Assembly (NCBI RefSeq): GCF_000020025.1 | Contig: NC_010632.1 | Span: 90,001-122,000, forward strand | Length of the DNA: 32,000 nt | Direction of reading: 5' to 3' | From: Nostoc punctiforme PCC 73102 | Lineage (GTDB): Bacteria > Cyanobacteriota > Cyanobacteriia > Cyanobacteriales > Nostocaceae | Part shown: piece after piece, positions 947-21,266 of the stretch | How the letters are laid out: each line of letters begins with the position of its first letter | How positions within the stretch are numbered: the stretch's first letter is position 1 | Notes under the pieces: model-generated | Told to the model about the DNA's origin: nothing | Seen by the model: the letters and a program-made list of their open reading frames with translations, nothing else | Database searches by the model: none | Translations under genes and position numbers: made by a program

Positions 947-3900
947 ATGAAACTCCCAATTAAACTTCAGGACTTATTACAGCAAAATGAAAGTGCAATT
1001 GTAGCAGCCAGCACGTTTCTTAGCCAAAAACTAGCATTGTTAGATTGTACAGGTGTGGTAACTGTCACTTCTGAACAATTAGCTCTGTTATTTTCTAGCA
1101 TTCCTGAAGATTGGGATTTCCAAGAATTTGAAGAACTTCTCAACATATCTACTGTTAATCCTATTTTCTATCACCAACTGCAAGAATGGATTAATCAGCG
1201 ATTAGGAAATACTCAAGCCGAACCTCCAAGTACGAATGAAGAATTAGCAAATACTAACGATCTCGATATTTTTAACTTCCGCAACGAGGTAATAGACGAC
1301 TACCGCCGTTATATAGAAAGCTTTCTCAAAATCCGCGATCGCAAAGTCAAAGAATTTGTAGATGCAGAATTAGACAAGGGACAACTTTGGACTGATCCCT
1401 TAGTACAACTCAATCCCAGTTATAAAAAAGGTGCAACAGCCAAAGAATTAGTACAACAGCAAATTCTTCATCCAGACTCTGAGAAATACTTTTGTAGAAA
1501 AGACGGTACACCTTTTACTTTTCACTACCACCAAAAGCAAGCATTTGAAACTGCACAACGCCAACAACCTTACGTTGTTACCACAGGAACAGGTTCCGGT
1601 AAAAGCATGACTTACGTCGTGCCGATCTTTGATGATTTATTGCGTCATCCCGAAATTTTAGGAGTCAGGGCAATATTGGTTTATCCCATGAATGCCTTGA
1701 TTAACTCACAAAAAGAAGAACTCGACAAATTTTTACGCCAAGTTCCGAATACTCATATTCGTGTTGAAAAATACACTGGGCAAGAAAGTTTAACCAGGAA
1801 AACCGAAATTCAAAACAATCCACCCCATATTTTACTCACCAACTATGTGATGTTAGAGTTAATGCTCTCACGCACTCACGAAAATAAACTGGTAGAGTCT
1901 CCCAATTTAAAATTCCTGGTACTGGATGAATTACACACCTATCGGGGACGACAAGGCGCAGATGTTGCTATATTGATCCGCAAACTCCGTCAGCGTAGCA
2001 AAAGTAATGACGAATTACTCTGCATTGGTACAAGTGCCACTATGTCAACGGTCGGTTCCCGCGAACAACGCCGTCAGGTTGTGGCAGATGTCGCTAGTAA
2101 GTTATTTGGCGTGGAAATTAAACCCAGTAATGTCATTGATGAAACCCTAGAACGTTCTATCCAACGTGTTGAACCCACTATTGAACAACTGTGCCAAGGA
2201 ATCTTGGCAGGTTTACCAACCGAGTTAGAACAAACACTAACAGAATTCCGAAACCACTCCTTGAGCCACTGGATCGAGATGAACTTCGGTTTAGAAGAAA
2301 GAGAAGGGCATCTCGTTCGCCGTCAACCCATCAGCTTAGAAACAGGTGCAACTAAACTTGCCGAACAAACCCAGCTTGTAGAGGAAACTTGTTTAACAGT
2401 CCTCAAACAGATGTTCCTTTGGGGAAGCAAAACTAATGGACTTGCCTTTCGCCTACATCAGTTCATTTCTCAAGGGGGAAGCGTTTACGCCACTATTGAA
2501 AATCGAGACAAACGCCATTTAACCCTTGAAGGTCAATATACAACCACCGACAACCGCCTACTTTATCCCCTCGTTTTTTGCCGGGAATGCGGACAGGATT
2601 ACTATGTCGTGCGCTACGATGCCGATAAGCATATTATCCTGCCCCAATTGCCCACTGCATTAGATATTAGTCCTGATGATGCAGATATTACCGAAGGTTA
2701 TCTTACCCTCGATGAACCAGAACTGTGGGATACAAGCGATGAAGATAGACTTCCTGACTCTTGGTTTAGTGAAACCAAAAAGAAAGGACGGGTTGCCAAA
2801 AAAGACTTTGTACGGTTTATTCCTCGCAAACTCCAAATTCTACCTAATGGTAAAGTTACATCCTCCCTGTTGCAAGAAACCACTTGTTGGTTTATTCCCA
2901 AACCATTTTTAACCTGTCTCAACTGCGGTGTACTTCATGACAAAAAGCGAAACGAATTTGCTAAACTCTCTCGCCTCAGTAGTGAAGGACGCAGTACCGC
3001 TACCACTCTACTTTGTCTTTCTACCACTAGCCGCCTCAAGCAAGTATTTACAGGGGAAAAAGCCAAAGCTGCCAAAATCCTCAGTTTTACCGATAACCGT
3101 CAAGATGCGTCTTTACAAGCGGGGCATTTCAATGATTTTGTCCAAACCAGTTTCTTACGGGCTGCACTTTTAGGAGCAATTCAAGCCAAAGGGAAACTCA
3201 CCCATAGCGAATTAGCTAGTGTAGTCGTCCAATACATGGGAATTACTCAAAACGACTATGCCAAACAAGCAGCAGAATTTGGTGTCGGGAAGCGTCGCAA
3301 TGAAGAAGCCTTTCGTAAACTGATTGAATATCGTCTTTACGAAGACTTGCGTCGGGGGTGGCGCATTGTTCAACCCAACCTCGAACAGTGTGGACTGTTG
3401 ATAATTGAATATGACGGACTTCAAGAAGCCTGTGCTGACAACAACCTTTGGCAAAAACACCGCCATCCTCTTTTACTACAAGCTACTCCGCAACAACGTT
3501 TCATCATTACCCAAGCATTCCTCAACCATTTGCGACGAGAATTGGCAATTGATGCCAAACTTTTACAGCCAGATCAGAAAGATTCACTCAAAAGCGAAGT
3601 CATTCAAGCTCTTAAAGAACCTTGGGTATTCGATGAGAACGAATATTTATACTTAGCAACTTGGGCAACTATTAGCACTGGTGGTAATGAAAAAGCGAAA
3701 GTTAAACTTACTACTAGAAGTAAGATTGGACGATTTTTGCGATCGCCAAATACATGGTCGCTCCGCAGCCAACTTTTAACAGATGTAGAGTTCAACAGCT
3801 TAATCACTACTTTAATTGATGCTTTGTGTGATGCTGGCTACCTAGTGCAAGAAAAATCTGAGGTACAGCTACGCATAGACTCACTATTATGGAAAGCAAC

Positions 3901-6295
3901 CAATCTCAAGGAAATCCCTACCGATCCCTTAACATCCCGCCGCTTGCAGGGTAACGATAAACCCAATATTTCGGTTAACCAATTTTTCCAAGGTTTTTAC
4001 CAAACCAACGCCTTGCAAATCCAAACAATGGAAGGGCGAGAACATACCGGACAGGTAAGCAACAAAGACCGTCAAGAACGGGAAGAAAAATTCCGTCAAG
4101 GACAATTAGCTGCATTGTTTTGTTCTCCAACAATGGAATTAGGCATCGACATTTCCGACCTTAGCGTTGTCCATCTCCGAAACGTTCCTCCCAGCCCCGC
4201 TAATTACGCCCAACGTAGCGGTCGTGCTGGTAGAAGCGGACAGCAAGCTTTAGTCATTACTTATGCTTCCATTGGTAGCGGTCACGATCAATACTTTTTC
4301 AAACGACAAAATCAAATGGTTGCTGGGGTAGTTGCTCCACCAAAATTAGAATTGGCCAACCAGGATTTAATTAAATCTCATGTTTACTCGATTTGGCTGG
4401 CACATACTGGGGTTTACTTGGAAGATTCCATGAATAAAATCTTGGATTTAGAATTAGAAAACTATCCCCTCAAAGACAGCATTCGCCAACAACTTACCCT
4501 GAGCCAAGCCAAATTAACCCAATGTCTGCAAGCTGCCCAATCTATCTTCTCAGACTTTTTCTGCCAAGAGGATCTACAAAAAGCTTCTTGGTATTCTGTA
4601 AATTGGTTACAGAATACCATCGAAAATGCTCTGAATGCTTTTGACCGTGCCTGTAAGCGTTGGCGAGATTTATATATAGAGTCAGTTAAACAGTTAGAAT
4701 CTGCCCGTCGCACTATTGACCGTTTTGCTAGAGGTGATATTGCCCAGGAAGAACGTAACAATGCCGAAGCTCAGGCACGAGAAGCACAACGACAAATTGA
4801 TTTACTCGTAGGACACAGCCAAGGTAAGAGTAATTCCCAGTTTGAATTTTATCCCTATCGTTACTTTGCTGCCGAAGGGTTTTTACCAGGGTTCAACTTC
4901 CCCCGTCTGCCAGTCCGAGCATTTATTCCGGCTGGTGAAGGTGGTGAATTCATCTCTCGCCCTCGCTCAATGGCATTACGGGAATTTGCTCCCAATAATA
5001 TCCTTTACTACGAAGGTAGTAAATTCATGGTGGCCAAAACAAAAGTTCCCGTTGGGGGCATTGAAGGCGAGTATAAACGGGTGAGTGTCTGCGCTAACTG
5101 CGGGTATTACCACGACGGCGATTTTCGTGACACTTGTGAAAACTGCGGTGCAGAAATTAAACCTGATGCTCATGGCAATGTAGCCAAATTGACTCGTGTA
5201 CTGCCAATGGAAACTGCGATCGCTCGTCGTCGAGAACGCATTACCTGCGATGAAGAGGAACGGCTCAAGTACGGCTACAACATCACCACTCATTTCCGCT
5301 ACGCTAGCCAAAAGCGGGAATCAGCTATTGTTCAAGCTGCTGACGGTACGCCATTGTTCAAGTTAACCTATGGAGCTACAGCTACCATTTGGCGAATTAA
5401 TCGGGGACTGAAGAAGAATAGAGAAGAACGAGGATTTAAGCTCAATCCAACAACGGGTGTATGGGGCGACCATAAAAATCCACAGGCTCAACAGACACCC
5501 GATAGCTTGCATACCGAAGTGAATTTAATGGTCGATGATACTTGCAATATCTTGATTGTTGAGCCATTAAATGTTCCTGTTGAGGATAGAGAAGCTTTTA
5601 TTGCCACCCTGCAATACACTTTGGAAACTGCAATTCAAGCCGTTTACAAATTAGAAGCTGATGAACTCGACTCCGAACGACTAGGCGAAGGCAAGTATTT
5701 ACTGTTCTGGGAAGCTGCTGAAGGTGGTGCAGGTGTACTCTCTCAGCTATTAGAAAAACCAGAGGCATTTAGAAAAATTGCTGATGCAGCTTTCGACATT
5801 TGTCATTTTACACAACCTAAAGACAGTTGTATTCAAGCTTGCTATGAATGTTTGCTTTCTTACCGCAATCAATTTGATCATGCACTGATAAATCGTCATT
5901 TAATCAAACCTTGGCTTGACCTCTTACTGGAGAGTAGCGTTATTACTCAAGTCAAAGGGCTTTCTCGCGATCAGCAATATCAAAAATTGCTGGAACAGAC
6001 AGATCCTAACTCTGATTTTGAGCGTGTGGTTTTGCAAGAGATTTATCAACGGGGCTACAAATTACCCGATGCCGCACAGCAATTTATTCCAGAAGCAAAC
6101 TGTAAGCCAGATTTTGTTTATGAGGAGGAGGCGATCGCTGTTTTTTGTGACGGTTCTGTTCATGATAGCCCCGATCAGCGCAAGCAAGATAAAATTGAGC
6201 GCGATAATCTTAGGTATAATACTGGCTATACTGTGCTGACATTACGTCATGATGAGGATTGGCAAACAAAATTGGATATTTTAGCGGGTCTATAA
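947..6295 (+). CDS. Giant DExH-box SF2 helicase fused to MrfA/DUF1998-type Zn-binding domain and C-terminal DUF559/Vsr-like endonuclease domain
   Basis: 1782-aa ORF. Helicase motifs: TGTGSGKS (Walker A), DELH (motif II), TSAT (motif III), QRSGRAGR (motif VI). Cys pairs: CRECGQDYY/CLNCGVLH and CANCGYYHDG...CENCG. These are followed by EAAEGGAGVL and CIQACYECLLSYRNQFDH, which is DUF1998-like. The C-terminus KPDFVYEEEAIAVFCDGSVHD...RDNLRYNTGYTVLTLRHDE resembles the DUF559 PD-(D/E)xK fold. Confidence 0.9.
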   Translation: MKLPIKLQDLLQQNESAIVAASTFLSQKLALLDCTGVVTVTSEQLALLFSSIPEDWDFQEFEELLNISTVNPIFYHQLQEWINQRLGNTQAEPPSTNEELANTNDLDIFNFRNEVIDDYRRYIESFLKIRDRKVKEFVDAELDKGQLWTDPLVQLNPSYKKGATAKELVQQQILHPDSEKYFCRKDGTPFTFHYHQKQAFETAQRQQPYVVTTGTGSGKSMTYVVPIFDDLLRHPEILGVRAILVYPMNALINSQKEELDKFLRQVPNTHIRVEKYTGQESLTRKTEIQNNPPHILLTNYVMLELMLSRTHENKLVESPNLKFLVLDELHTYRGRQGADVAILIRKLRQRSKSNDELLCIGTSATMSTVGSREQRRQVVADVASKLFGVEIKPSNVIDETLERSIQRVEPTIEQLCQGILAGLPTELEQTLTEFRNHSLSHWIEMNFGLEEREGHLVRRQPISLETGATKLAEQTQLVEETCLTVLKQMFLWGSKTNGLAFRLHQFISQGGSVYATIENRDKRHLTLEGQYTTTDNRLLYPLVFCRECGQDYYVVRYDADKHIILPQLPTALDISPDDADITEGYLTLDEPELWDTSDEDRLPDSWFSETKKKGRVAKKDFVRFIPRKLQILPNGKVTSSLLQETTCWFIPKPFLTCLNCGVLHDKKRNEFAKLSRLSSEGRSTATTLLCLSTTSRLKQVFTGEKAKAAKILSFTDNRQDASLQAGHFNDFVQTSFLRAALLGAIQAKGKLTHSELASVVVQYMGITQNDYAKQAAEFGVGKRRNEEAFRKLIEYRLYEDLRRGWRIVQPNLEQCGLLIIEYDGLQEACADNNLWQKHRHPLLLQATPQQRFIITQAFLNHLRRELAIDAKLLQPDQKDSLKSEVIQALKEPWVFDENEYLYLATWATISTGGNEKAKVKLTTRSKIGRFLRSPNTWSLRSQLLTDVEFNSLITTLIDALCDAGYLVQEKSEVQLRIDSLLWKATNLKEIPTDPLTSRRLQGNDKPNISVNQFFQGFYQTNALQIQTMEGREHTGQVSNKDRQEREEKFRQGQLAALFCSPTMELGIDISDLSVVHLRNVPPSPANYAQRSGRAGRSGQQALVITYASIGSGHDQYFFKRQNQMVAGVVAPPKLELANQDLIKSHVYSIWLAHTGVYLEDSMNKILDLELENYPLKDSIRQQLTLSQAKLTQCLQAAQSIFSDFFCQEDLQKASWYSVNWLQNTIENALNAFDRACKRWRDLYIESVKQLESARRTIDRFARGDIAQEERNNAEAQAREAQRQIDLLVGHSQGKSNSQFEFYPYRYFAAEGFLPGFNFPRLPVRAFIPAGEGGEFISRPRSMALREFAPNNILYYEGSKFMVAKTKVPVGGIEGEYKRVSVCANCGYYHDGDFRDTCENCGAEIKPDAHGNVAKLTRVLPMETAIARRRERITCDEEERLKYGYNITTHFRYASQKRESAIVQAADGTPLFKLTYGATATIWRINRGLKKNREERGFKLNPTTGVWGDHKNPQAQQTPDSLHTEVNLMVDDTCNILIVEPLNVPVEDREAFIATLQYTLETAIQAVYKLEADELDSERLGEGKYLLFWEAAEGGAGVLSQLLEKPEAFRKIADAAFDICHFTQPKDSCIQACYECLLSYRNQFDHALINRHLIKPWLDLLLESSVITQVKGLSRDQQYQKLLEQTDPNSDFERVVLQEIYQRGYKLPDAAQQFIPEANCKPDFVYEEEAIAVFCDGSVHDSPDQRKQDKIERDNLRYNTGYTVLTLRHDEDWQTKLDILAGL

Positions 6296-6335: not shown

Positions 6336-7739
6336 TTAGCCAAATCCACGATTGGAACTACTTGAATTTCTAGTATTCCCACTTGCTTTGATTTTTACAA
6401 TGTGGATTGTCTCTGCCATAACTTGACCATTCTTTTCGATTTGACAGGTCATGCGGTGATTACCTTTATAGGCTGTGCTTGTCCACTTTGTGGTTGCGCT
6501 ATCGCTGCTTTCCCAACAAAGCTGTTCTGCCTCTTGTGCTTCATCTCCTTCGTTATTAACGATCCATCGTACACTATAGGGCTGTGGTACATTTGTTGAC
6601 ACGACAGTAAATTTGAGTGCAACACCTTTCGGTAAGATAGAGCTTCCACTCAAATAGTGCTTATAAGTCGGCCCATTTTCATATTTGGCGAGATCACAAC
6701 GAATTGTTAGATTGTATCTTGCTATAGCAATTACATCGCCAAAGTCAATAACCTTTTTACTCTCTTTCGCCACCCAAAATTGATGGTTAAAAACCCAATC
6801 CCAAGCCGAACGTGCTTTTTCTCTTGTACATGAATGGTTAAATAATACCTCAAGTTTATCAATTGCAACTTTAAGATTATCCCGAAGCCGAATAACTTGA
6901 TTTAATATTTCAGTTTTACCAGTTAGTTCCTGTGACTTATCAACTGGATTGTACACTTTACAAGAGACTGTTAACCGATTATGTAAAGCTACCATAGTGT
7001 CGTAAAGTGCAATATCGTCACGCTCACCGTTCGGTTTGTAAACTCCTGACTCAGCTATTAGTGTTGAGACAATCATGCCACCAGGTAAGCTCCAAGAGAT
7101 TCGGGAACGGCAAAACCATTTTAAAAAACGTACAATACGACGCATTTGCCCTTCTTTAACTTTGGGGTAATACCCAAGTATAAAATTGGCTTTTGGGCTG
7201 AATGTGTCAACACATTCAGCAAACCAATTATTAATCTGCATTGGATCTCGGCGTTTCCACTCTGTACTGGCGTGTTCGATACGTTTTATGCCAAATTCAT
7301 CTATATAGGTACGGTAGATTGCAAAGTCAATATGGTAGCCTTCTGCATACCAAACTGTAACTGCATTAGTACGAGCCTCTGGTTCTTTTGTAAAATTAGT
7401 GCAGCGTTTATATAAAGCGTCACGTACACGTTGGCGTGCTTTGAGTGGGTTTTCTGGTATTTCGTCTCTATGAAAAATTAGAGCAATATCAATATCGTAG
7501 TCATTATCATTATTTGGATCTTTATTAAGAGTATGCATGGCATAGCCACCTTGATTCTTAGAATCATAGGGATGTGGATGTAGACAATTAGTTTCTTTTT
7601 TAAGATCGTCTAATCCATTTTTAAGTCTGGTAATATTTAGATCCCGATAGCCAGCAAGCTGTTGTCTTAGTTCTCCTCCAAGACGAACATGATGGTCATA
7701 AAAATACTGTAAATCATTGGATATGTCATACATGAACAT
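6336..7739 (-). CDS. SMODS / CD-NTase-like nucleotidyltransferase with C-terminal AGS-C-like beta-rich sensor domain
   Basis: 467-aa ORF that starts 6 nt after the upstream stop. It has an N-terminal helix typical of CD-NTases. The Pol-beta NTase signature is GGYAMHT...DYDIDIA, with a third acidic strand YHIDFAIY and RDPMQINNWF. The tail (last ~135 aa: PYSVRWIVNNEGDEA...YKGNHRMTCQIEKNGQVMAE) resembles the AGS-C domain fused to SMODS enzymes and cyclases. Confidence 0.75.
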   Translation of the reverse strand: MFMYDISNDLQYFYDHHVRLGGELRQQLAGYRDLNITRLKNGLDDLKKETNCLHPHPYDSKNQGGYAMHTLNKDPNNDNDYDIDIALIFHRDEIPENPLKARQRVRDALYKRCTNFTKEPEARTNAVTVWYAEGYHIDFAIYRTYIDEFGIKRIEHASTEWKRRDPMQINNWFAECVDTFSPKANFILGYYPKVKEGQMRRIVRFLKWFCRSRISWSLPGGMIVSTLIAESGVYKPNGERDDIALYDTMVALHNRLTVSCKVYNPVDKSQELTGKTEILNQVIRLRDNLKVAIDKLEVLFNHSCTREKARSAWDWVFNHQFWVAKESKKVIDFGDVIAIARYNLTIRCDLAKYENGPTYKHYLSGSSILPKGVALKFTVVSTNVPQPYSVRWIVNNEGDEAQEAEQLCWESSDSATTKWTSTAYKGNHRMTCQIEKNGQVMAETIHIVKIKASGNTRNSSSSNRGFG

Positions 7740-7745
7740 ATAATT

Positions 7746-10700
7746 TTATTCCTGAGCATTACTAATAATTGGAGTAGTCCAGACAACTCTAGATTCAGGG
7801 GAATTACTACCATTAATCTTTATGCCCCAGGCATACCGAGGTTGTGTATGGGCTGTGTAATTGTAAACGATAACCTGATGATGAATAGTTCTACTGATTC
7901 TGCGTCCAAGACTAAAACCAAGGCTAACGGGCCCTGTGTAAAAGATATGCACGACAAGTGATTTATCAAGACGGTTATGCAAATCATCAAGTACCTGTCG
8001 AAAAGCTTGGCAGATTTTGTTTACCTGGCTATAATGACTAATTGCATCAATTCGTCGCTTCCCAATTTGAATCAAAATATCTTCATAGGGCTGAGATAAT
8101 ACATCATCTACATCACTCTTTAAGATGTCAAACGAAATGGCAATTCTGATAGCAACTGCAACAGGATTTTTTACTCGTGAGATAATAACATTTAACTCTA
8201 TCTCTGGACTATCGCTACTTGCAAGTTGATACCAGCAATTTGTATTACGATCTAACTCAAATAAAAACACCTTAGGCCAGGTTGAAAAAGCATAACCTAC
8301 ACAGAACTGAAGTGGAATGTGAACAATACCGTAGTAACCGATTTTTCCTTCTGAGTTAGCTTTGAATAATTTTAAAAAACCATTTATAAATTTGTCATTT
8401 TGTTTTACAGCACTACTAGGATCGCAAATGCCACCTATATAGAAAGATGACTGATCAAACTCTATATGTTGAATTTTATAATCTCGAATGTTATGTGGTA
8501 AATCTTCTTTTGAAATAAGACCAGTTAGCAGTTCAAATGAATGGTGACGAATAGCAAAGAATGTTCGCTGCGAAAACTGGACATTTGAGTTAGATATTAT
8601 TAATTGGTCTTCTTTTTTAAAAGTTCCATATCGCAATTTGATATCGTACCTTGGCACTGGATTATTTTTATCGCTCCAACGAGCATCCGCAGACCAAGCC
8701 CCGTCAGCCTTCTCTTTCTTTCGTGTCTCAACCGTCATCACTCCGCTTTCTGGGTCAAGAGTTAGCAAGTTGTACTGAAGTGGTATACCTGTAACCTGCT
8801 CCTTAGCAGGTGCGCCAAAAGTTCCAGCAGCAATAATTTTGATACCACGTCGTGTATCGTACTGAAAATTCTCGTCTTTTGCTTCATGGATGTGTCCGTG
8901 AATCCCAACTTGGAAATCATTAACTGCTAACTGTTCTAGAAAAGCTGTATTTTTCATTGACTCAGCACCATTAACTGGATGATGCCAGACAGCGATTTTC
9001 AGCCAGCCGTCGTAGTTTCCTGTAAGAATTTGGTCAAGCGCACTGGAGATTGCATTAGGATGAATACCAGCGCGATTTCTATATTCGTGGTCAATCTCCC
9101 AACAGGAATTAAGCCCTAAAAAGAGGATTTTATCTTCAGGACAAAAGTGAATAATTGCTTGCTGGTCATATTCTTGAGGATAAGGTTTATTGTAAATTTT
9201 TTTATAAAAGCGATCGCTAAAATATTCAAACCGTTTTTTATACTCACTCTCATCACAAATTAATGCGCCTGCACTACCTGCATCAATATATTTTCCTTGT
9301 GGTAAGGGATTAGGTAGTTTGCGCTTCGGAACGAAAGTATAAGCAGTTTCTGATAATTCCCAGTTGAGGTCATGGTTTCCAGGAACTATAACAATCCGGC
9401 TAGGGTCAAGCCCGTAGCGTTTGACCAGTTTATCAACCAGTTCAAAAGCTGCATCGTATTCCTCTTGTGTTGAACGATTGGCGATATCGCCGGAAATTAC
9501 CAAGTAGTTAAGCTGTTTTACATTAAGATTTTGGGTCAGGTCGGTAGCCAATTGCGTAAAGTAGCGTTGTGCTTGCGCTGTAGTCACTAAATGAATATCG
9601 GATAGATGGAGAATGCGTATTTGCTTGTCTGCATTGTTCATGTATATTTCTTTATCATGGTAGAATGCGTTAACTTCTTCTTCAGTGCGTTTTTCTACTG
9701 TAGTCCTTAGTTCCTGTTGTTTTTCAGGTAACAATTCAGGTGGCAGTTTGTCTATTGCAGATGCGGCAATCTTACGCACATCAGTATCTTTATCATTTAA
9801 AGTCTTGATGATTTCTTGTATTGAGATATTGTCCTGAGATAATTCTTGATAAGACGGCTCTAACTCTTTCGCTAACTCTGTATACTTTCCACCCAAACGC
9901 CTCAAAACCTTCGCTGTAATTTGAGCAAAAGGACGAATAAAAATACTACTACTTGAACTATCTACAGCCAACGCTGGATTCACTAACATTGCTGTGAATT
10001 CATCAACAGATAATCCAGCCCGTTGCGCCAAATACTCCGAAAGCCTACGCAATACCTCAGTTGATTCTGTTAGCGGAACTGCATCAAGCAGCAAATCTCG
10101 TATACCCTCAATAAAATCAAATTGAATTTTATCGGTATCTACATTATCATTGACTAGCGATAAAGGTTTTAAGATGCCAGCTAACAATACCTCAGCTACA
10201 TGAACTTGGCTCGACTTCTGTAGCATTGTCTGCTGTATCAATCTTACAATTGGTAAACTAATTGGGACAGCAGCCAAAAGTCCTGCCAGTTTCCTTGCCA
10301 TTGGCGAAGCAGTGAGGCGAAAGCGTTGCAAACGTTGTTTGGCTGTAAGCTCGATGTTGGAATTTTCTGTTGATTCGCTACTAACATCAAGTATTTCTCC
10401 ATCCAGTGCAAGCAAAAAACCTTTGGTTTGCACCTCTCCCGCACCTGCAACCATCCGCGTCCAATTTTTCAGCGATTCTGGTTCTAGCGTCACTACAGGG
10501 ATTTTTAGCTTGTTTACAACATCGCTTTCATTAAGCAAATCCAACGCTGTCATGATTAACTGTTGGTTGGGGACTCCAGGAGCCAAACTGCGTAGTAAAA
10601 TTGACTCGGCAAGACCCAAAGTGCTTCTTTCCCACAGCCACTCAGGTAATACTTGAATTATCGTTGTTGGGCTAGTATTAGCCCAAGCTGCTAAAGTTTT

Positions 10701-11459
10701 GGTAACAGCACCGTTATACCAAGCTGGGGAAACGCAATCGCTGATAATTATAAACAGCCGCCGACCGTTGGGATCAATTAGTTCTCTGGGGTTGTGTAAC
10801 CTTTTTTGCCGAGATAGGTTGCCAGTTCTGGGACGCAGCCAAACTTTGCTATCTTTATCGGTAAATAATCCCCAAGTTCGCACGTCTCGAAAAGCACCAT
10901 GTCTTTCCAGTAGTTGCTTAAATTCCTTAATGGTTTGCTGCCAGAGGAACATCGATGTTCCCTCGTCTATCACCAAAGCCACTTCTAGCCAGCGATCGCG
11001 TGCGGGACACATTACGGGTAATAAAAGCTTTTCTTCAGCAATGCGTTCTGCGGTAGCGATTTCGTCGAGGATAAATTCATTTCTGGAGGGAACTCGACGT
11101 TTTAAAGGTTTGAGGGAGCGGGATATTTCTAATTTGTTTCGTAATGCTTGAGCGGTAGGAACTTTAATGGGTAAACCGCTTGAGGTTTCGTTGTTATCCT
11201 GCGAAGATTGAGGATATACATTAGCATTAGCTTCAGTTTTATTGATAGATTTTGAGAAATTTATATTTTGCTCTAACGGTAATTGGGGTGAAGCTGAGAC
11301 TGTTTTTTGAGTAGATGCAGAGTTTTGTTGTTGCGTTTCAGATACAGATGAGGACTGAGAGCTACGCATTTGCACAGCCAACCAGAGGATATCTGCAATT
11401 TCGGTATCGGTTAAATCAAACCCCAGGTTTTGAAAAGCACCAATTACCCTTTCAATCAT
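7746..11459 (-). CDS. Multidomain vWA protein: SAV_2336-type N-terminal domain + vWA + helical region + HEAT-like repeat + calcineurin-like metallophosphoesterase + SAVED nucleotide-sensor domain
   Basis: 1237-aa ORF.
- aa 1-31: [31 protein letters not shown], the N-terminal domain typical of vWA partners of MoxR in ternary conflict systems.
- aa ~35-100: S/Q-rich linker.
- aa ~155-285: vWA, with [13 protein letters not shown] as the MIDAS region and LFIIISDC.
- aa ~545-580: HEAT-like ([17 protein letters not shown]).
- aa ~613-905: all five phosphoesterase motifs ([37 protein letters not shown]).
- aa ~995-1215: SAVED-like ([16 protein letters not shown]...[21 protein letters not shown]...VIVYNY...YAWG). 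Confidence 0.8.
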
Positions 11460-12406
11460 ATATCCTCTGCGCTTGTGAGATATTTCATTAGTGCATTGAG
11501 GAGTCGTTCTTTATCATCCCCGGCAGGACTCCTTTCACGGGTTACTAAATAAATAGCATTAAGCAACTGATCTGTTGCTAAATCGCCTGCATCGCTTCTG
11601 TCTCGACGCTTTACAAATTCACTAATTAAGACCTCTGCTTCTGACATTATCTCTTCCCCTAAATGTGCTTGCACAATTCTTTTTAATGCTGCTTCATCGG
11701 GGTTTTCCATTGTCAAGCGCAGACACCTCCGTAAAAATGCTGGAGGAAATTCCCTTTCTCCATTGCTAGTTAATAGCACAAAAGGAAATTGAGTACAACG
11801 CACCCGTCCTTTATTGATAGTGGCAACATTACCATCATAAGTGCGTACTTGTACCGTCTGGTATTCTTGGGGTAATCTGGCTAATTCGGGTATTTCAAAT
11901 TCACCTTCCTCAAATATATTGAGTAAATCATTCGGTAAATCAATGTCACTTTTATCAATTTCATCGATTAGCAAAACATGAGGATGAGATGATGGTAAAA
12001 GTGCTGTTCCCAAAGGGCCAAGTTGAATATATTTACCAATATTTTTGGTATTATCCTTGCCTTGAGAATCTTGTAGACGAGCGATCGCATCATAGCGGTA
12101 AAGCCCTTCTTGCAGAGTTGAGCGGGTGGTGATGGGCCATTGCAGTACAGAACCTAGTTGGAGTTCGTCAGCAACTTTGTAAGCAAGAGAGGTTTTACCA
12201 GTCCCCGGTTTTCCAGTCACCAGCAAAGGACGGCGCAGGTAAAGTGCTGCATTTACAAGCTCAATTTCATTACGACGAACTTGAAAGGTTTGTCCACGCT
12301 CCTTCTCCTTGGCATCCCCAAACTCACGCCATTTTGGTGGTTTTGGAAGATTCTTGATTCCATCATGTGGTGAGTCTGTACCTTGGAAAATCAGCCAATC
12401 GCTCAT
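11456..12406 (-). CDS. MoxR-family AAA+ ATPase (vWA-MoxR-VMAP system ATPase)
   Basis: 316-aa ORF. Motifs: Walker A GKPGTGKT, Walker B LLIDEIDK, sensor-1 LLTSN, Arg finger region PPAFLRRC, and an N-terminal [10 protein letters not shown] motif. An AGGAG sits 6 nt upstream of the ATG. The stop overlaps the next gene's start by 4 nt (ATGA). Confidence 0.85.
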
Positions 12407-12420
12407 TGCTTACTCCTAAA

Positions 12421-13641
12421 TTATGATGAAGAAAACTTCAATGCTGGGTTTGGCGGTATTCGATTGGGGTCATCCCACCATAAGACTAAATGATTACCCA
12501 AGTGCATTTCATGGTCAGATCCTAAACGACGTTGTTCTCTAACGCAGGTGGACAGTTCGTGCAATGGTTTTTTTAGTAACGCATCAAAGTGTTCAGGATT
12601 TTTGAGACTGTTTAGCTCACAACGTGACCAAATTATAATCGGTGTCCCAGCACTGTGGATTGCACTAAGTAGACCACTTCGCTCTGAGTCTGATAAATCA
12701 CAGCAGATTTTAAGAATAATTTTCTCAAATAGCATATCTCTCAATTTTTTGGGATCAAAACGAGCTTGAGAAACTGTTATAGCCTGCTCATAACAGGGAG
12801 GAGCTTGCCAAGTTAGTCGAACATTTTCCCAATTTCTGCGCCAATATGAACTTTGCTGTGTGCGTAATTTTTTCAGTCGATCGTAGGAACGCACTACAAC
12901 CCGAAAATCCTTACCAATAGTGATATTACAATCTTCGTCATCCTTATATTCCCATTTTTCCACCTCATCACATAGGTGATCGCGCGGTAGAAAAATTTCA
13001 ATAGTTAACTCTGTCGGTTGTCCTTGCAAGTATTCCTCAAAACATTGCTGGAGCAATTTACTGAGCAATATTGGTAATTTCTCCGGCACAAGTATAATTT
13101 CTGGCTGTTGCTCGTCAACAGTTAGAGGTTTAAAACGTTCCCAAGTATCTTCAATTGTATCGTCAGGAATAAACCAAGCTTTGACATATAATTCTCTGCT
13201 TCCTTCTGGTCGAAGTTGAATGAGCAGATAGGAATGCAGTGATTGTACGGATGTAGTTTTACTACTAGCTTCAAAAGATTCATTAGTTAATATCTGTTTG
13301 AGTTTTTGGCGGATAGTTTGAGGAATATTGTTGTCTTGAGTTAGCAAACAAATAAATTTTAATAAAGCAGAATTATTAGGGTTTGAGTAAGGAATTTCTT
13401 CTAATTGCTCAAGTACATCATTAACGTCTTTAGGTTTGTCTCTCCAGTCGAACCATCCATCAGGAGCGATTTTAGAGAAAGCTTTATTTATCGCATCATC
13501 ATCTGAAATATTTAAAAATAAAAGATTTATTTGGTTTTTAATATTTTGTTGTGTAATATCTCTTGTGGTTAAGTTTCCGCCCACTAGTAAATCTTTTAAA
13601 ATGTCTTGTTGGCTTTCTAAACTTAGTTTTTTCTCGCTCAT
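12421..13641 (-). CDS. VMAP (vWA-MoxR-associated protein) with VMAP-C-like C-terminal domain; no recognisable effector domain
   Basis: 406-aa ORF and the first gene of the operon. C-terminal half: LLIQLRPEG..YVKAWFIPDD, LTIEIFLPRDHLCDEVEKWEY, FRVVVRSYDRL, GTPIIIWSR. It ends in LGNHLVLWWDDPNRIPP, which matches the hallmark G-x-HL-x-LLWDDP-x-R-x-P ending I recall for VMAP-C. Confidence 0.65.
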   Translation of the reverse strand: MSEKKLSLESQQDILKDLLVGGNLTTRDITQQNIKNQINLLFLNISDDDAINKAFSKIAPDGWFDWRDKPKDVNDVLEQLEEIPYSNPNNSALLKFICLLTQDNNIPQTIRQKLKQILTNESFEASSKTTSVQSLHSYLLIQLRPEGSRELYVKAWFIPDDTIEDTWERFKPLTVDEQQPEIILVPEKLPILLSKLLQQCFEEYLQGQPTELTIEIFLPRDHLCDEVEKWEYKDDEDCNITIGKDFRVVVRSYDRLKKLRTQQSSYWRRNWENVRLTWQAPPCYEQAITVSQARFDPKKLRDMLFEKIILKICCDLSDSERSGLLSAIHSAGTPIIIWSRCELNSLKNPEHFDALLKKPLHELSTCVREQRRLGSDHEMHLGNHLVLWWDDPNRIPPNPALKFSSS

Positions 13642-13889: not shown

Positions 13890-14375
13890 ATGATTGACCC
13901 AGTATCCCTTGTTGCTGGAGTAGTGACAACTGTTCTTCTGCCAAAAGCTTTAGAGAAAGTAGGCGAGAAAATTGGCGAGACTGCCTGGGATAAAAGTGCA
14001 GAAGCTATCCAGAATGTACGTGAAACAGTCCAAGCGAAGTTGCAAACTGCCGGGACTACTGGATTGCTAACACGAGCAGAAACCAACCCAAATGAAGTAA
14101 ATACGCAGGTCTTGCAAGCGGAAATTGTAACTCAGATGCAGGAAGACCAAGATTTTGCAACGAAGTTACAAGAGCTAGTTAAGCAAATGCAATCCCAATC
14201 TCCGACTGTACAAGTAATTCTGAAGGAGCTTCGAGTTAGGGGTAAGGTCGAAATTGGTAATATTAAACAAATCAATGAGGGGCAAAGCAATGCTCAACAG
14301 AAGTTTGGTAAGAATTGGCAAGTAGGCGGAGATGTTAAAGTTGGGGATGTAACCCAGGAAAACCGAAGTGTCTAA
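13890..14375 (+). CDS. Hypothetical small protein (hydrophobic N-terminus, Q/E-rich helical middle, G/V-rich repeat tail)
   Basis: 161-aa ORF with GGAG 8 nt upstream of the ATG. It is transcribed divergently from the VMAP operon across a 248-bp AT-rich spacer. No family was recognised. Confidence 0.6.
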   Translation: MIDPVSLVAGVVTTVLLPKALEKVGEKIGETAWDKSAEAIQNVRETVQAKLQTAGTTGLLTRAETNPNEVNTQVLQAEIVTQMQEDQDFATKLQELVKQMQSQSPTVQVILKELRVRGKVEIGNIKQINEGQSNAQQKFGKNWQVGGDVKVGDVTQENRSV

Positions 14376-14732: not shown

Positions 14733-15083
14733 CTAATCGCTAATCCCATATTCCCGCTCAATCAAACCCAACAACTTCTCCTCTACTGTAGTCAAATAAG
14801 GTCGCTTCAACTCACCCAGGTACTTCAACATAGTACTTGGTGCATCTTCTAAGCTTTCATTTTCCCGTAACCGACCAATGCGATCGCAAATCACTCGCAT
14901 CTGCTCACACTCGGCAGGCAAGTAGTTGTACGACTTCAGGTATTGCAACCCAACTGTATACTCACCATCCCAGGTTTTGACGGTGCAGCTAAATTCATCC
15001 ACATGGTTGACTATGCCCCAGCAGCCGCCTTTATTTCTGAGTTCGGGATTATCTTTGGCAAGAATCTGACAGACTTCGCACAG
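14733..15083 (-). pseudogene. 5'-truncated paralogous copy of the 3' end of the 16340..17293 gene
   Basis: The frame is open only from 15083. Its translation, EVCQILAKDNPELRNKGGCWGIVNHVDEFSCTVKTWDGEYTVGLQYLKSYNYLPAECEQMRVICDRI..., is collinear with the last 115 aa of the 317-aa protein. The homologous segments are both 345 nt long (14733-15077 vs 16340-16684). Homology ends abruptly at ~15078, with a stop at 15084-15086. Confidence 0.6.
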
Positions 15084-15230
15084 TTAATAAAGCATAGGTG
15101 ATACCAAGACAAAGTAATACATTTTTCTGTAATTTACTTTGTATTATATAAGTAGCATAAGGAAAACTCTTATTCTTTCGTAACAAACCTGTGCCAGCTT
15201 TTACTTGATCGCGCTAAAAGGAGAGTGGTG

Positions 15231-15770
15231 ATGAAAAAAGTAGCAGTGTTTGGCAATACTGGAGGCGGTAAATCAACTTTAAGCAAGAGATTATCCCAAG
15301 TCACTGGTTTACCACTTCACGTCTTGGACAAGATTCAATTTGAATCAGGAGGAACCCAGGTTCCAGATGAAGACTTTTTAAGCGCCCATCATCAAATTTT
15401 AGCTACTGAGCGATGGATTATTGACGGGTTTGGTTGTATGGAAACCCTCTGGTTACGGCTGGACAAGGCGGATACTCTAGTTTTTGTGGATCTCCCGCTA
15501 TATCTGCATGGATGGTGGGTCACTAAACGACTAATCACTGGTTATTTTAAACCCCCAGATGGCTGGCCTTCTAATAGTCCAATTTTGAGGAGTTCCCTTA
15601 ATAGCTACCGTGTGCTTTGGTTATGTCACAAATATTTGACCCCAAAATATCGTGAGTATATCAAACAAGCTCAAAGCATCAAGAGTGTTTATCACATTCG
15701 CTCGACTAAAGAAATTTCACAATTTTTTGGATTAATTGAGCGTCAGACTAACTTAAAAGATGGTGTATAA
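15231..15770 (+). CDS. P-loop NTPase, adenylate-kinase / topology-modulation (FlaR)-like
   Basis: Walker A FGNTGGGKST sits at the N-terminus, followed by WIIDGFG and LVFVDLP strands. The ATG at 15231 is preceded by AAAGGAGAG. The ORF track instead starts at the GTG at 15225. Confidence 0.75.
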   Translation: MKKVAVFGNTGGGKSTLSKRLSQVTGLPLHVLDKIQFESGGTQVPDEDFLSAHHQILATERWIIDGFGCMETLWLRLDKADTLVFVDLPLYLHGWWVTKRLITGYFKPPDGWPSNSPILRSSLNSYRVLWLCHKYLTPKYREYIKQAQSIKSVYHIRSTKEISQFFGLIERQTNLKDGV

Positions 15771-15773
15771 ATC

Positions 15774-16295: not shown

Positions 16296-16339
16296 GGGGA
16301 GCTTATTGCACACTGACTCTACAAAAATAGACATGGTTC

Positions 16340-17293: not shown

Positions 17294-17315
17294 AAAGCCG
17301 CCTCTAGGCTGATAT

Positions 17316-17806: not shown

Positions 17807-17874
17807 ACCGTTTTTCTTGTCAATAGCAACCTTAGTCTCAGAATCATCCTTACTTGGCTATTGTGTAATTTTTT

Positions 17875-18225: not shown

Positions 18226-18246
18226 TTCCTAATTCTTACTCCTTAA

Positions 18247-18382: not shown

Positions 18383-18454
18383 ATAAGTAGTACATAAAGA
18401 AAAAGCAATACAAAAGACGACCGACTGAGCCTGAGAAACTTCCGCGATCGCCTT

Positions 18455-21257: not shown

Positions 21258-21266
21258 GGTGAAACA

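What the first reader, a model, noticed from the sequence alone, without database searches (positions are those of the whole stretch)
7746..9842. HEAT / calcineurin-like phosphoesterase / SAVED extension on a vWA protein: effector or signal-degrading brake?
The last ~700 aa of the vWA protein are an add-on not expected in ordinary vWA partners of MoxR. All five metallophosphoesterase motifs (DxH, GD, GNHD, H, GHxH) are intact. They resemble class III cyclic-nucleotide phosphodiesterases (CpdA-like) as much as Mre11/SbcD-type nucleases.

Fused to a SAVED sensor, this domain could act in one of two ways. It could be a ligand-activated nuclease or nucleotide-depleting effector, or a self-limiting enzyme that destroys the second messenger. 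These two alternatives give opposite system logic.
Basis: partly seen in the sequence, partly recalled or inferred. Interest (0 to 1): 0.7.

Follow-up and report, generated by a model that had tools for sequence, protein, structure and literature searches.

The report
Cyclic-nucleotide-gated phosphoesterase grafted onto vWA protein
The tail of this Nostoc punctiforme protein is a real, catalytically intact phosphoesterase followed by a cyclic-nucleotide sensor. Both were pasted as ready-made cassettes onto the vWA subunit of a known MoxR-vWA-VMAP defence machine, so the gene joins two already described immune systems and is most likely a nucleotide- or NAD-destroying suicide effector, not a signal brake.

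Summary
Amino acids 540-1237 of the 1237-aa ORF (7746-11459, minus strand) contain a calcineurin-like phosphoesterase with all five metal motifs and a strong SAVED domain. The "HEAT" part is a single sub-threshold repeat.

The operon is VMAP, MoxR, vWA fusion, then a CD-NTase with an AGS-C domain. That is a VMAP ternary system (Kaur et al. 2020) joined to a two-gene CBASS pair.

DNA comparisons give sharp breakpoints:
- 9724-13615 is 94% identical to a metagenomic VMAP system whose vWA carries a HEAT-like repeat array and has no cyclase.
- 8622-9727 is 93% identical to a phosphoesterase cassette inside a Nostoc flagelliforme NACHT protein.
- 7525-8622 is 92% identical to a SAVED plus CD-NTase pair in Nostoc sp. 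NMS7.

The same phosphoesterase cassette sits in effector position on STAND, GTPase, CHAT, TIR and EAD proteins that have no cyclase. Its best profile matches are anti-phage phosphoesterase families, including the PUA-Calcineurin-CE/MisA family shown to cleave NAD+ and (d)NDPs. Its fold is nearer small-molecule phosphodiesterases than Mre11.

I favour a SAVED-gated nucleotide/NAD-depleting effector (confidence about 0.6). A signal-degrading brake and a nuclease are less likely. The exact fusion is a singleton, so I rate it a new variant of known kinds, of moderate interest.

The parts
12421..13641 (-). VMAP gene (406 aa): VMAP-M1 middle region plus VMAP-C, with no N-terminal effector-associated domain
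   Evidence: Pfam VMAP-C E = 1.2e-32 and VMAP-M1 E = 6.6e-20. It is 85% identical to aa 105-501 of an EAD8-bearing VMAP in L016. It is collinear at 92% nt identity with the EAD-less VMAP of N. flagelliforme pNFSY08.
11456..12406 (-). MoxR-type AAA+ ATPase (316 aa). Its stop overlaps the vWA start by 4 nt.
   Evidence: Pfam AAA_5 and AAA. Walker A is GKPGTGKT (aa 65-72) and Walker B is VLLIDEID (aa 144-151). The family-specific N-terminal motifs DWLIFQG and PPKWREF are present. It is 97% identical to the L016 MoxR.
7746..11459 (-). 1237-aa fusion protein: vWA core, one HEAT-like repeat, phosphoesterase, SAVED
   Evidence: Identical to P0121, N. punctiforme 'SAV_2336 N-terminal domain-related protein'.
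10014..11408 (-). vWA core with flanking helical extensions (aa 18-482)
   Evidence: NCBIfam SAV_2336_NTERM, E = 1.1e-160. It is 75-92% identical to about 120 cyanobacterial vWA proteins that carry unrelated C-terminal domains.
9735..9833 (-). Single HEAT-like repeat (aa 543-575), ending in KLPPELLP; a vestige of a repeat array
   Evidence: Pfam HEAT E = 0.03, below cutoff; alphaRep PDB matches. In P0122 (92% identical over aa 1-579) the same unit is followed by further KLPPELLP-type repeats.
8622..9727 (-). Phosphoesterase cassette (aa 578-946): N-terminal linker helix, calcineurin-like catalytic core, and a clade-specific C-terminal extension
   Evidence: 93.1% nt identity to a segment inside a 1731-aa NACHT protein gene of N. 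flagelliforme pNFSY08, with exactly these ends. 107 of 120 homologues match only this segment. AF2 model pLDDT 80.8. Motif residues are listed.
7749..8624 (-). SAVED sensor domain (aa 946-1237)
   Evidence: Pfam SAVED E = 2.6e-39. 92% nt identity with the SAVED gene of Nostoc sp. NMS7, starting exactly at nt 8622. Sequence matches to BtCap14 and 3TM-SAVED structures, E about 1e-8. All of the top 50 Foldseek hits are SAVED domains, although the model has pLDDT of only 49.
6336..7739 (-). CD-NTase with C-terminal AGS-C domain (467 aa), starting 6 nt after the fusion gene
   Evidence: PADLOC Cyclase PDLC00799 E = 2.9e-205. Pfam DncV-like_NTFase E = 2.4e-13 and AGS_C E = 3.6e-31. Catalytic GG (aa 64-65), DxD (DYDIDI, aa 80-85) and HID (aa 136-138) are present.
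13890..14375 (+). Conserved divergent 161-aa ORF upstream of VMAP; function unknown
   Evidence: 145 of 161 residues are identical to the ORF in the same position beside the N. flagelliforme VMAP system, annotated there as a Fis-family regulator. No Pfam or PADLOC family.

Best explanation
The four minus-strand genes form one operon. It joins a VMAP-MoxR-vWA ternary conflict system to a minimal CBASS pair (CD-NTase plus SAVED effector).

The C-terminal 660 aa of the vWA subunit is a CBASS-style effector. It consists of a calcineurin-like phosphoesterase of the conflict-effector clade ('Calcineurin-CE') placed directly N-terminal to a SAVED sensor.

Proposed mechanism:
1. On infection, the adjacent CD-NTase (with its AGS-C domain) makes a cyclic oligonucleotide, probably a cyclic dinucleotide.
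2. SAVED binds it and drives oligomerisation.
3. The phosphoesterase is switched on and hydrolyses phosphoanhydride or phosphodiester bonds of free nucleotides. Likely reactions are NAD+ to NMN plus AMP and/or (d)NDP to (d)NMP.
4. Nucleotide or NAD pools collapse and the infection aborts.
5. Because the effector is tethered to the vWA subunit, the MoxR ATPase and the VMAP sensor/adaptor can add a second, ATP-dependent gate or reset.

Status of each step:
- Shown: domain composition, intact catalytic motifs, operon structure, the cassette origin of each part, and the effector-position context of the cassette elsewhere.
- Inferred: effector rather than brake, the substrate class, the ligand class, activation by oligomerisation, and any role of MoxR/VMAP.
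For: Operon and families:
- Gene order is VMAP, MoxR, vWA, with a 14-nt gap, a 4-nt overlap, and a 6-nt gap before the CD-NTase.
- PADLOC CBASS effector model PDLC00736 covers aa 614-1213 in the same phosphoesterase-then-SAVED order, E = 1.8e-40.

Cassette structure at the DNA level:
- nt 9724-13615 is 93.9% identical to L016.
- nt 8622-9727 is 93.1% identical to a segment in the N. flagelliforme NACHT gene.
- nt 7525-8622 is 92% identical to Nostoc sp. NMS7 SAVED plus CD-NTase.

Effector position:
- The cassette (50-92% aa identity) is fused to CHAT, STAND/NACHT, Roc-type GTPase with WD40, TIR, caspase, SLOG and EAD modules, across cyanobacteria, proteobacteria and an archaeon. None of these carries a cyclase or SAVED.
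- In Moorena it is the terminal domain of a vWA protein (vWA-EAD1-phosphoesterase) in a VMAP system with no cyclase.
- Relatives of this CD-NTase sit next to 2TM-SAVED or CHAT-SAVED genes and lack VMAP, MoxR, vWA and the phosphoesterase. The part N-terminal to SAVED is therefore the swappable killing module.
- No other effector domain exists in this operon.

Enzyme class:
- Best NCBIfam matches are the anti-phage families DS8 (E = 2e-21) and DS9_1 (E = 2e-20, aligned to profile positions 187-444, where the Calcineurin-CE domain of PUA-Cal begins). SbcD scores 6.5e-6.
- PUA-Cal/MisA cleaves NAD+ to NMN plus AMP and dNDP to dNMP, and is activated by filament formation (preprints 10.1101/2025.11.05.686725 and 10.64898/2026.01.15.699771).
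- Foldseek ranks YydB, Lmo2642, Rv0805, GpdQ and SMPDL3A/B above Mre11.

Ligand class:
- The SAVED is closest in sequence and predicted fold to the 2'3'-cGAMP-binding BtCap14 and 3TM-SAVED, then to Cap5.

Defence setting:
- A DruE-like helicase lies convergent at 947-6295, and an Eco57I/MmeI-type methyltransferase lies beyond it.
Against: - There is no biochemistry for this protein or for any close homologue of the cassette.
- The link to PUA-Cal/MisA rests on a domain-level profile match far below that family's equivalog cutoff (73 bits against 420). I could not obtain a PUA-Cal sequence for direct alignment.
- The nearest solved folds include enzymes that hydrolyse cyclic nucleotides (Rv0805, Lmo2642) and 2'3'-cGAMP (SMPDL3A, from my own knowledge). 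This is also what a brake would look like. Kaur et al. 2020 filed the calcineurin domain under 'enzymes cleaving cyclic nucleotides'.
- The exact fusion is a singleton among 5.8 billion protein clusters. It could be a recent recombinant whose parts are not functionally coupled.
- The SAVED model is low confidence (pLDDT 48.9), and the phosphoesterase-SAVED interface was not modelled.
Confidence: 0.6

Rival explanations
1. Signal-degrading brake. The phosphoesterase hydrolyses the cyclic oligonucleotide bound or sensed by the adjacent SAVED. This limits CBASS signalling, and the actual output is delivered by the MoxR-vWA-VMAP complex or by something encoded elsewhere.
For: - The closest solved folds are cyclic-nucleotide and small-molecule phosphodiesterases: Lmo2642, Rv0805, GpdQ and SMPDL3A/B.
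- Kaur et al. 2020 list the vWA-fused calcineurin domain as an enzyme cleaving cyclic nucleotides.
- Automated annotations of some homologues read 'CpdA'.
Against: - The same cassette, at 50-92% identity, is the terminal domain of STAND, GTPase, CHAT, TIR and EAD proteins, and of a Moorena VMAP system that lacks any cyclase or nucleotide sensor. There is no signal to degrade in those systems.
- This operon would then have no effector at all. Its VMAP has no N-terminal effector or EAD, and there is no peptidase gene.
- No CpdA-type family matches at E <= 0.01.
- In this SAVED clade the position N-terminal to SAVED is always the killing module.
- Later work from the Aravind laboratory states that Calcineurin-CE domains are 'invariably' in effector context.
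Confidence: 0.13
2. Ligand-activated nuclease. The phosphoesterase acts like Mre11/SbcD and degrades DNA or RNA once SAVED is occupied, as Cap4, Cap5 and NucC do.
For: - PADLOC labels the matching CBASS effector model PDLC00736 'Endonuclease'.
- By sequence profile the best PDB match is SbcD, E = 3.8e-5, and TIGR00619 sbcd scores E = 6.5e-6. Both matches cover the N-terminal approx. 90-100 residues (motifs I-III) only.
Against: - The SbcD/Mre11 similarity is confined to the generic motifs I-III and is far below the family cutoff.
- Foldseek places Mre11 well below the small-molecule phosphodiesterases (E = 5.6e-6, TM 0.39, against E = 1e-10 to 1e-8, TM 0.46-0.49).
- The experimentally studied relatives of the conflict-effector clade act on NAD+ and nucleotides, not on nucleic acids.
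- The PADLOC label is a class name, not an assay.
Confidence: 0.15
3. Uncoupled evolutionary accident. A recent three-way recombinant happens to keep open reading frames, but the VMAP/MoxR part and the CBASS part do not work together. Either the CBASS half works alone, or the whole locus is on its way to decay.
For: - The fusion is a singleton found only in N. punctiforme.
- Breakpoints are sharp, and the flanks are 92-94% identical at the nucleotide level to three different donors. This indicates recent events.
- The locus is rearranged relative to L016.
Against: - All four ORFs are intact, with tight spacing or overlap.
- All catalytic, Walker and metal motifs are retained.
- Junctions fall exactly at domain linkers, as expected for selected cassette exchange.
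- vWA fusions to SAVED and to calcineurin domains recur in other VMAP systems. CARF/SAVED proteins coupled to vWA-MoxR-VMAP are reported near type III CRISPR loci.
Confidence: 0.1

Closest known systems
VMAP ternary systems (vWA-MoxR-VMAP; Kaur, Burroughs, Iyer & Aravind 2020, eLife, PMC7159879)
   Same: - Same strict gene order: VMAP, MoxR, vWA.
- VMAP-M1 plus VMAP-C domains.
- MoxR with the family-specific N-terminal motifs.
- vWA core of the SAV_2336 type followed by variable C-terminal effector domains.
- SAVED and a calcineurin-superfamily phosphodiesterase are both listed among known vWA fusions.
- Host is a multicellular cyanobacterium.
   Different: - A CD-NTase gene is attached as a fourth operon gene.
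- The two nucleotide-related domains occur together as a phosphoesterase-SAVED tandem.
- There is no peptidase or EAD partner.
- I found no other instance of this exact architecture.
Type I CBASS with a SAVED-fused effector (Cap4, Cap5, TIR-SAVED, 2TM/3TM-SAVED Cap14; phosphoesterase-SAVED effector class, PADLOC PDLC00736)
   Same: - CD-NTase adjacent to a gene whose product ends in SAVED, with the enzymatic module directly N-terminal to SAVED.
- Close relatives of both the CD-NTase and the SAVED form ordinary two-gene CBASS pairs.
   Different: - The effector is embedded in a 1237-aa vWA protein and co-transcribed with an AAA+ ATPase and VMAP.
- The SAVED clade is otherwise 2TM-, CHAT- or caspase-linked, never phosphoesterase-linked.
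- The known CBASS ancillary modules (Cap2/Cap3, HORMA-TRIP13, QueC/TGT/OGG) are absent.
Calcineurin-CE conflict effectors: PUA-Cal-HAD / Metis MisA (preprints 10.64898/2026.01.15.699771 and 10.1101/2025.11.05.686725; clade defined by Nicastro et al. 2023 NAR, which I could not read here)
   Same: - Calcineurin-like phosphoesterase fused to a small-molecule nucleotide sensor and used as the terminal effector of an anti-phage system.
- Best NCBIfam matches of the window domain are to these anti-phage families.
- Both have an invariant extra Asn-containing motif between motifs III and IV.
   Different: - The sensor is SAVED (cyclic oligonucleotide) and is C-terminal, not PUA (m6dAMP) and N-terminal.
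- There is no HAD partner.
- Similarity is at domain level only (73 bits).
- Substrate is untested.
Type III CBASS (HORMA plus TRIP13 AAA+ remodeller)
   Same: As an analogy only: an AAA+ ATPase and an adaptor protein are encoded with the CD-NTase and effector, which suggests ATP-dependent gating or reset of signalling.
   Different: - The proteins are unrelated (MoxR, vWA and VMAP versus TRIP13 and HORMA).
- Here the remodeller's partner is fused to the effector, not bound to the cyclase.
- There is no experimental support.

Membership tests
VMAP ternary system | Conserved gene order VMAP, MoxR, vWA in one operon | tested here: met
   Genes at 12421-13641, 11456-12406 and 7746-11459, all on the minus strand, with a 14-nt gap and a 4-nt overlap.
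VMAP ternary system | VMAP with a VMAP-C domain and a VMAP-M middle region | tested here: met
   Pfam VMAP-C E = 1.2e-32 and VMAP-M1 E = 6.6e-20.
VMAP ternary system | MoxR with an N-terminal unstructured region bearing the WxhapG and PsWRxa motifs | tested here: met
   DWLIFQG (aa 3-9) and PPKWREF (aa 23-29), read directly from the sequence. In the second motif the 's' position is K, which is not a small residue.
VMAP ternary system | vWA with flanking helical extensions followed by hypervariable C-terminal domains | tested here: met
   NCBIfam SAV_2336_NTERM E = 1e-160. Homologues that are 40-92% identical over aa 1 to approx. 545-590 carry HEAT, AAA-CHAT, caspase, NACHT, FGE, GUN4, TIR, Roc or WD40 tails.
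CBASS | CD-NTase with intact catalytic G[GS], [DE]x[DE] and D residues | tested here: met
   PADLOC Cyclase E = 2.9e-205. GG at aa 64-65, DIDI at aa 82-85 and HID at aa 136-138.
CBASS | Adjacent effector carrying a cyclic-oligonucleotide sensor domain | tested here: met
   SAVED lies at the C-terminus of the gene 6 nt upstream. PADLOC CBASS effector model PDLC00736 E = 1.8e-40.
CBASS | The cyclase makes a cyclic oligonucleotide that activates the effector and protects against phage | not testable with these tools
   Requires biochemistry and phage assays.
SAVED domain | Sequence membership | tested here: met
   Pfam PF18145 at 135 bits against a cutoff of 26; NCBIfam NF033611 at 99.6 bits against a cutoff of 33.
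SAVED domain | Tandem CARF-like fold | tested here: inconclusive
   The AF2 model has pLDDT of only 48.9 with a 12-sequence alignment. Even so, all top 50 Foldseek PDB hits are SAVED domains (Cap14, 3TM-SAVED, Cap5, Cap4, CalpL), with TM 0.4-0.5.
Calcineurin-like metallophosphoesterase superfamily | Five metal-binding motifs: DxH, GD, GNH[DE], H, GHxH | tested here: met
   D621/H623, D658, N695/H696, H826/H827 and H856/H858. These are invariant or near-invariant in 35 homologues. AF2 pLDDT is 80.8 with an alpha/beta sandwich core.
Calcineurin-CE (conflict-effector clade) | Occurs in the effector position of diverse conflict systems | tested here: met
   Fusions to STAND, CHAT, GTPase-WD40, TIR, caspase, SLOG, EAD and vWA.
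Calcineurin-CE (conflict-effector clade) | Closer to experimentally defined anti-phage phosphoesterases (PUA-Cal/MisA) than to housekeeping clades | tested here: inconclusive
   NCBIfam DS9_1 E = 2.4e-20 (profile positions 187-444) and DS8 E = 2e-21, against SbcD at 6.5e-6 and no CpdA match. The scores are far below the equivalog cutoffs. No PUA-Cal sequence was available for alignment or a tree, and the defining paper is not held.
Calcineurin-CE (conflict-effector clade) | Hydrolyses NAD+ and/or nucleoside di- or triphosphates | not testable with these tools
   Known only for PUA-Cal/MisA.
Class III cNMP phosphodiesterase (CpdA/Rv0805) | Sequence membership in the CpdA/Icc family | tested here: not met
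   No CpdA/Icc NCBIfam model matches at E <= 0.01. Against the PDB sequences, Rv0805 scores E = 0.41 with the family profile. Fold similarity exists, with TM 0.47.
Mre11/SbcD nuclease | Full-length match, including the nuclease-specific regions beyond motifs I-III | tested here: not met
   TIGR00619 scores 26 bits against a cutoff of 77.65 and covers aa 614-704 only. Foldseek gives Mre11 TM 0.39, E = 5.6e-6, ranked 14th.
HEAT repeat protein | An array of HEAT repeats | tested here: not met
   One unit only, 15 bits against a cutoff of 23.5. It is homologous to the first unit of the arrays in P0122, P0124, P0126, P0128 and P0130.

The most novel reading that the evidence does not exclude
This operon would be a previously unclassified CBASS configuration. 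A MoxR AAA+ ATPase, a vWA scaffold and a VMAP sensor would act as the ancillary regulatory module, playing the part that HORMA-TRIP13 plays in type III CBASS. Because the module is covalently tethered to the effector, killing would need two keys: a protein-level event sensed by VMAP and remodelled by MoxR, and a cyclic nucleotide sensed by SAVED. The output would be a Calcineurin-CE nucleotide/NAD-depleting enzyme, an effector class not yet demonstrated for CBASS.
Probability: 0.25. Interest if true: 0.7.

Novelty: new variant of a known kind. Interest (0 to 1): 0.45.

Why it matters
- It would give a natural, genetically tractable example of cross-wiring between two large families of bacterial immune systems, in Nostoc punctiforme, a model cyanobacterium. 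The two families are the ATP-dependent MoxR-vWA-VMAP machines, for which I found no experimental mechanism in the papers I could search, and cyclic-oligonucleotide signalling.
- It offers a handle on what MoxR, vWA and VMAP actually do, because the effector end now has a predictable small-molecule trigger and a measurable enzymatic read-out.
- It would extend the newly characterised Calcineurin-CE nucleotide/NAD-depleting effectors to CBASS.
- The nucleotide-precise breakpoints are a clean illustration of how effector cassettes, each with its own linker, move between STAND, vWA and SAVED scaffolds.

Tried and rejected
- **One model of phosphoesterase plus SAVED together.** MAFFT placed the SAVED-only homologues under the phosphoesterase region, both with full-length sequences (A1) and with trimmed ones (A2). 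I therefore modelled the two domains separately, and the interdomain interface was not assessed.
- **SAVED model.** It came out at low confidence (pLDDT 48.9). I use it only as weak support.
- **A second phosphoesterase-SAVED fusion.** P0020 (648 aa) looked like one, but profile comparison shows its C-terminus is not SAVED.
- **A PUA-Cal/MisA sequence for direct alignment.**
  - The plasmid tblastn hits turned out to be a YydB-YydD-like pair (H3) and a DS8-like 869-aa protein (H12).
  - Nicastro et al. 2023 is not held.
  - The literature search on YydB/YydD was uninformative.
- **Promoter and terminator scan of the operon.** Counts were at chance level.
- **Search for 'CBASS + SAVED + metallophosphoesterase' papers.** It returned nothing.
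- **Idea that the window VMAP is a truncated one-off.** It lacks the EAD8 seen in L016. I rejected the idea because N. flagelliforme has the same EAD-less VMAP with the same divergent 161-aa neighbour.


Full report
**What is there**

The finding lies in the 3' part of a 1237-aa ORF on the minus strand (7746-11459). The ORF is third in a tight four-gene operon:
- a 406-aa gene at 12421-13641;
- a 316-aa gene at 11456-12406, separated by a 14-nt gap, whose stop overlaps the next start by 4 nt;
- the 1237-aa gene;
- a 467-aa gene at 6336-7739, after 6 nt.

Profile searches identify the four products:
- VMAP: VMAP-M1 E = 6.6e-20 and VMAP-C E = 1.2e-32.
- A MoxR-type AAA+ ATPase.
- A SAV_2336-type vWA protein: NCBIfam E = 1e-160 over aa 18-482.
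- A CD-NTase with a C-terminal AGS-C domain: PADLOC cyclase E = 2.9e-205.

The 1237-aa protein is identical to an NCBI Nostoc punctiforme entry and occurs on 50 independent assemblies. The fusion is therefore real.

**Checking the observation**

- Amino acids 614-859 match Pfam Metallophos (E = 1.4e-13), and aa 1034-1215 match SAVED (E = 2.6e-39).
- The five metallophosphoesterase motifs are D621/H623, D658, GNHD 694-697, H826/H827 and H856/H858. They are invariant or near-invariant across 35 aligned homologues.
- The cassette also has clade-specific invariant residues: H618, N784-S-x-W787-x-x-D790-H791, R913-K-K-E916, W922, D925, R927 and W928.
- An AlphaFold2 model of aa 577-950 is confident through most of the catalytic core (mean pLDDT 80.8), though several segments of the C-terminal extension fall below 50.
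- The 'HEAT' element is one repeat (aa 543-575) that scores below Pfam's cutoff.

**How the gene was built**

Three nucleotide-level comparisons give sharp breakpoints.

1. Window 9724-13615 is 93.9% identical to a metagenomic locus, L016.
   - L016 encodes EAD8-NACHT, EAD8-trypsin, EAD8-VMAP, MoxR (97% aa identity) and a 1047-aa vWA protein.
   - That vWA protein is 92% identical to ours up to aa 579-591. It then continues as an array of KLPPELLP-type HEAT-like repeats.
   - Our single 'HEAT' is the first unit of that array. Homology stops right after KLPPELLP.
   - L016 has no CD-NTase.
2. Window 8622-9727 (aa 578-946) is 93.1% identical to a segment inside a 1731-aa NACHT protein gene on Nostoc flagelliforme plasmid pNFSY08.
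   - That gene lies about 2.3 kb from the nearest gene (the VMAP) of a VMAP-MoxR-vWA system there, and about 4.6 kb from its vWA gene.
   - That system shares our EAD-less VMAP and the divergent 161-aa neighbour at 92% nt identity.
3. Window 7525-8622 is 92% identical to a SAVED gene plus CD-NTase in Nostoc sp. NMS7. Homology begins exactly at nt 8622, which is aa 946.

The protein is therefore made of three parts: vWA core plus one repeat, a phosphoesterase cassette, and SAVED. The SAVED arrived together with its cyclase.

**What each cassette normally does**

*The phosphoesterase cassette*
- It is highly mobile and well conserved, at 50-92% aa identity across cyanobacteria, gammaproteobacteria and a Methanoperedens archaeon.
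- It is fused at either end of CHAT, STAND/NACHT/AAA-like, Roc-GTPase-WD40, TIR, caspase, SLOG and EAD proteins. In 29 of the 120 hits of the first homologue search (107 of which match only the cassette) it travels with its own N-terminal linker helix.
- None of these partners is a cyclase or a nucleotide sensor.
- In Moorena it ends a vWA protein (vWA-EAD1-phosphoesterase) in a VMAP system with EAD1-trypsin and no cyclase.

*The SAVED*
- It belongs to a clade of 75 detectable homologues. Most are 345-375-aa proteins in which SAVED is the only Pfam domain, and 55 of 62 in the 330-430-aa range have N-terminal hydrophobic helices.
- The Nostocales members instead carry CHAT or caspase domains.

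*The CD-NTase*
- Its relatives in Stenomitos, an Oceanospirillaceae MAG and Nostoc sp. NMS7 sit directly after such SAVED genes.
- None of those loci has VMAP, MoxR, vWA or the phosphoesterase.

In this lineage, what sits N-terminal to SAVED is the exchangeable killing module.

**Which enzyme class**

By profile:
- The best named matches are two NCBIfam anti-phage families, DS8 (E = 2e-21) and DS9_1 'anti-phage phosphoesterase' (E = 2.4e-20).
- The DS9_1 match aligns to profile positions 187-444. That is where the Calcineurin-CE domain starts in the PUA-Cal protein (residues 186-549).
- SbcD reaches only E = 6.5e-6, over the first 90 residues.
- No CpdA/Icc model appears at E <= 0.01.

By predicted fold (Foldseek against the PDB), in rank order:
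- B. subtilis YydB (E = 6e-16, TM 0.62). A YydB-like phosphoesterase plus ATPase pair lies beside another defence system on a Pseudomonas megaplasmid.
- Lmo2642.
- Rv0805.
- GpdQ.
- SMPDL3A/B.
- Mre11 only at rank 14 (TM 0.39).

Two recent preprints show that the PUA-fused member of the conflict-effector clade cleaves NAD+ to NMN plus AMP. One of them reports that it also converts (d)NDPs to (d)NMPs and is activated by ligand-induced filament formation. That preprint states that Calcineurin-CE domains are invariably in effector context.

**Which ligand**

- By sequence, the SAVED is closest to BtCap14 (9om7, E about 1e-8) and to a 3TM-SAVED (9wq2). Both were solved with 2'3'-cGAMP.
- The SAVED model is weak (pLDDT 48.9). 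Even so, all top 50 fold hits are SAVED domains, with cyclic-dinucleotide binders (Cap14, 3TM-SAVED, Cap5) ahead of Cap4 and CalpL.
- The CD-NTase is nearest to Deinococcus and CdnG-type enzymes in the PDB.
- A cyclic dinucleotide is the best guess, held loosely.

**Mechanism and rivals**

I favour the following, at about 0.6 confidence:
1. The CD-NTase makes a cyclic (di)nucleotide.
2. SAVED binds it and oligomerises.
3. The tethered Calcineurin-CE-type phosphoesterase depletes NAD+ and/or nucleotides.
4. Infection aborts.
5. MoxR and VMAP provide an ATP-dependent second gate or reset. [quoted passage not shown]

The rivals:
- **Brake (about 0.13).** Fold similarity to cyclic-nucleotide phosphodiesterases and the 2020 classification keep it alive. 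It would leave the operon with no effector, and it cannot explain the cassette's use in cyclase-free systems.
- **Nuclease (about 0.15).** It rests on a PADLOC class label and on generic similarity over motifs I-III.
- **Uncoupled recent recombinant (about 0.1).** This cannot be excluded, because the architecture is a singleton.

**Comparison with what is known, and novelty**

Every component and both parent systems are already described:
- VMAP ternary systems with SAVED or calcineurin fusions on the vWA subunit.
- Phosphoesterase-SAVED CBASS effectors.
- Calcineurin-CE effectors.
- CARF/SAVED proteins coupled to vWA-MoxR-VMAP near type III CRISPR loci.

What I did not find elsewhere is a CD-NTase operonically attached to a VMAP ternary system through a vWA-phosphoesterase-SAVED fusion. 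I rate it a new variant of known kinds, of moderate interest. Its main values are as a tractable entry point into MoxR-vWA-VMAP function and as a clean example of effector-cassette exchange.

The locus lies in a defence island. A DruE-like helicase is convergent at 947-6295, and a type IIG-like methyltransferase lies beyond it.

Noticed in passing
window 947-6295 (+), and beyond the window start in L001: A 1782-aa helicase (DEAD, Helicase_C, MZB, and a weak REase_MTES_1575 match) matches the PADLOC Druantia DruE models (E = 1.8e-92). It is convergent with the CD-NTase, 40 nt apart. In longer contigs it is preceded by a 149-aa gene and a 1291-aa Eco57I/MmeI-type methyltransferase. This is a Druantia-like system next door, so the locus is a defence island.
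   Followed up: partly
window 13890-14375 (+): A 161-aa ORF lies divergent from VMAP. It has a hydrophobic N-terminus and no Pfam or PADLOC family. 145 of 161 residues are identical to an ORF in the same position beside the N. flagelliforme pNFSY08 VMAP system, annotated there as a Fis-family regulator. It may be a conserved regulator or an accessory of EAD-less VMAP systems.
   Followed up: partly
window 9636-9731 (aa 577-608): A roughly 30-residue helix ([18 protein letters not shown]...) precedes the phosphoesterase core. It travels with the cassette in 29 of the 120 hits of the first homologue search and has low model confidence. The upstream recombination junction lies exactly at its start. 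It may be a portable linker that makes the cassette transferable between scaffolds.
   Followed up: partly
window 10950-10973 (aa 163-170): The vWA MIDAS-like motif reads D165-E-G-T-S169, not the canonical DxSxS. Across 120 homologues the D and the last S are conserved, while the middle position varies among S, G and A. This is a family trait, not a loss specific to this gene.
   Followed up: yes
L016 11084-11692 versus window 18482-19081: A gene that lies about 1 kb downstream of the vWA gene in the metagenomic relative is found, at 77% nt identity, on the other side of the operon and in the opposite relative orientation in the window. N. flagelliforme shares several flanking pieces with window 14740-19912. 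The island has been rearranged around the operon.
   Followed up: no
window approx. 19900-30000 (+): A run of same-strand genes typical of a mobile element or prophage remnant: DUF1392, KilA-N, a 2OG-Fe(II) oxygenase, a T5orf172/MUG113 domain protein, a DnaB-type replicative helicase, ASCH, a C5-cytosine methylase fragment and a transposase-type HTH protein.
   Followed up: no
L013 6001-10352 (Symploca sp. SIO1C2): A stand-alone copy of the phosphoesterase cassette (358 aa, 66% identical) is followed immediately by a 1074-aa protein that combines a Metallophos domain with GAF domains. This is another case of the enzyme paired with a small-molecule or cyclic-nucleotide sensor.
   Followed up: no
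L012 4995-8764 (P. aeruginosa plasmid pPUV-9): A 483-aa metallophosphoesterase (28% identical to the cassette over 82% of the query) overlaps by 1 nt the start of a 772-aa ATP-binding protein gene. The pair lies beside an ABC-three-component system and resembles B. subtilis YydB-YydD, the top structural match. It is possibly an uncharacterised two-gene defence system.
   Followed up: no
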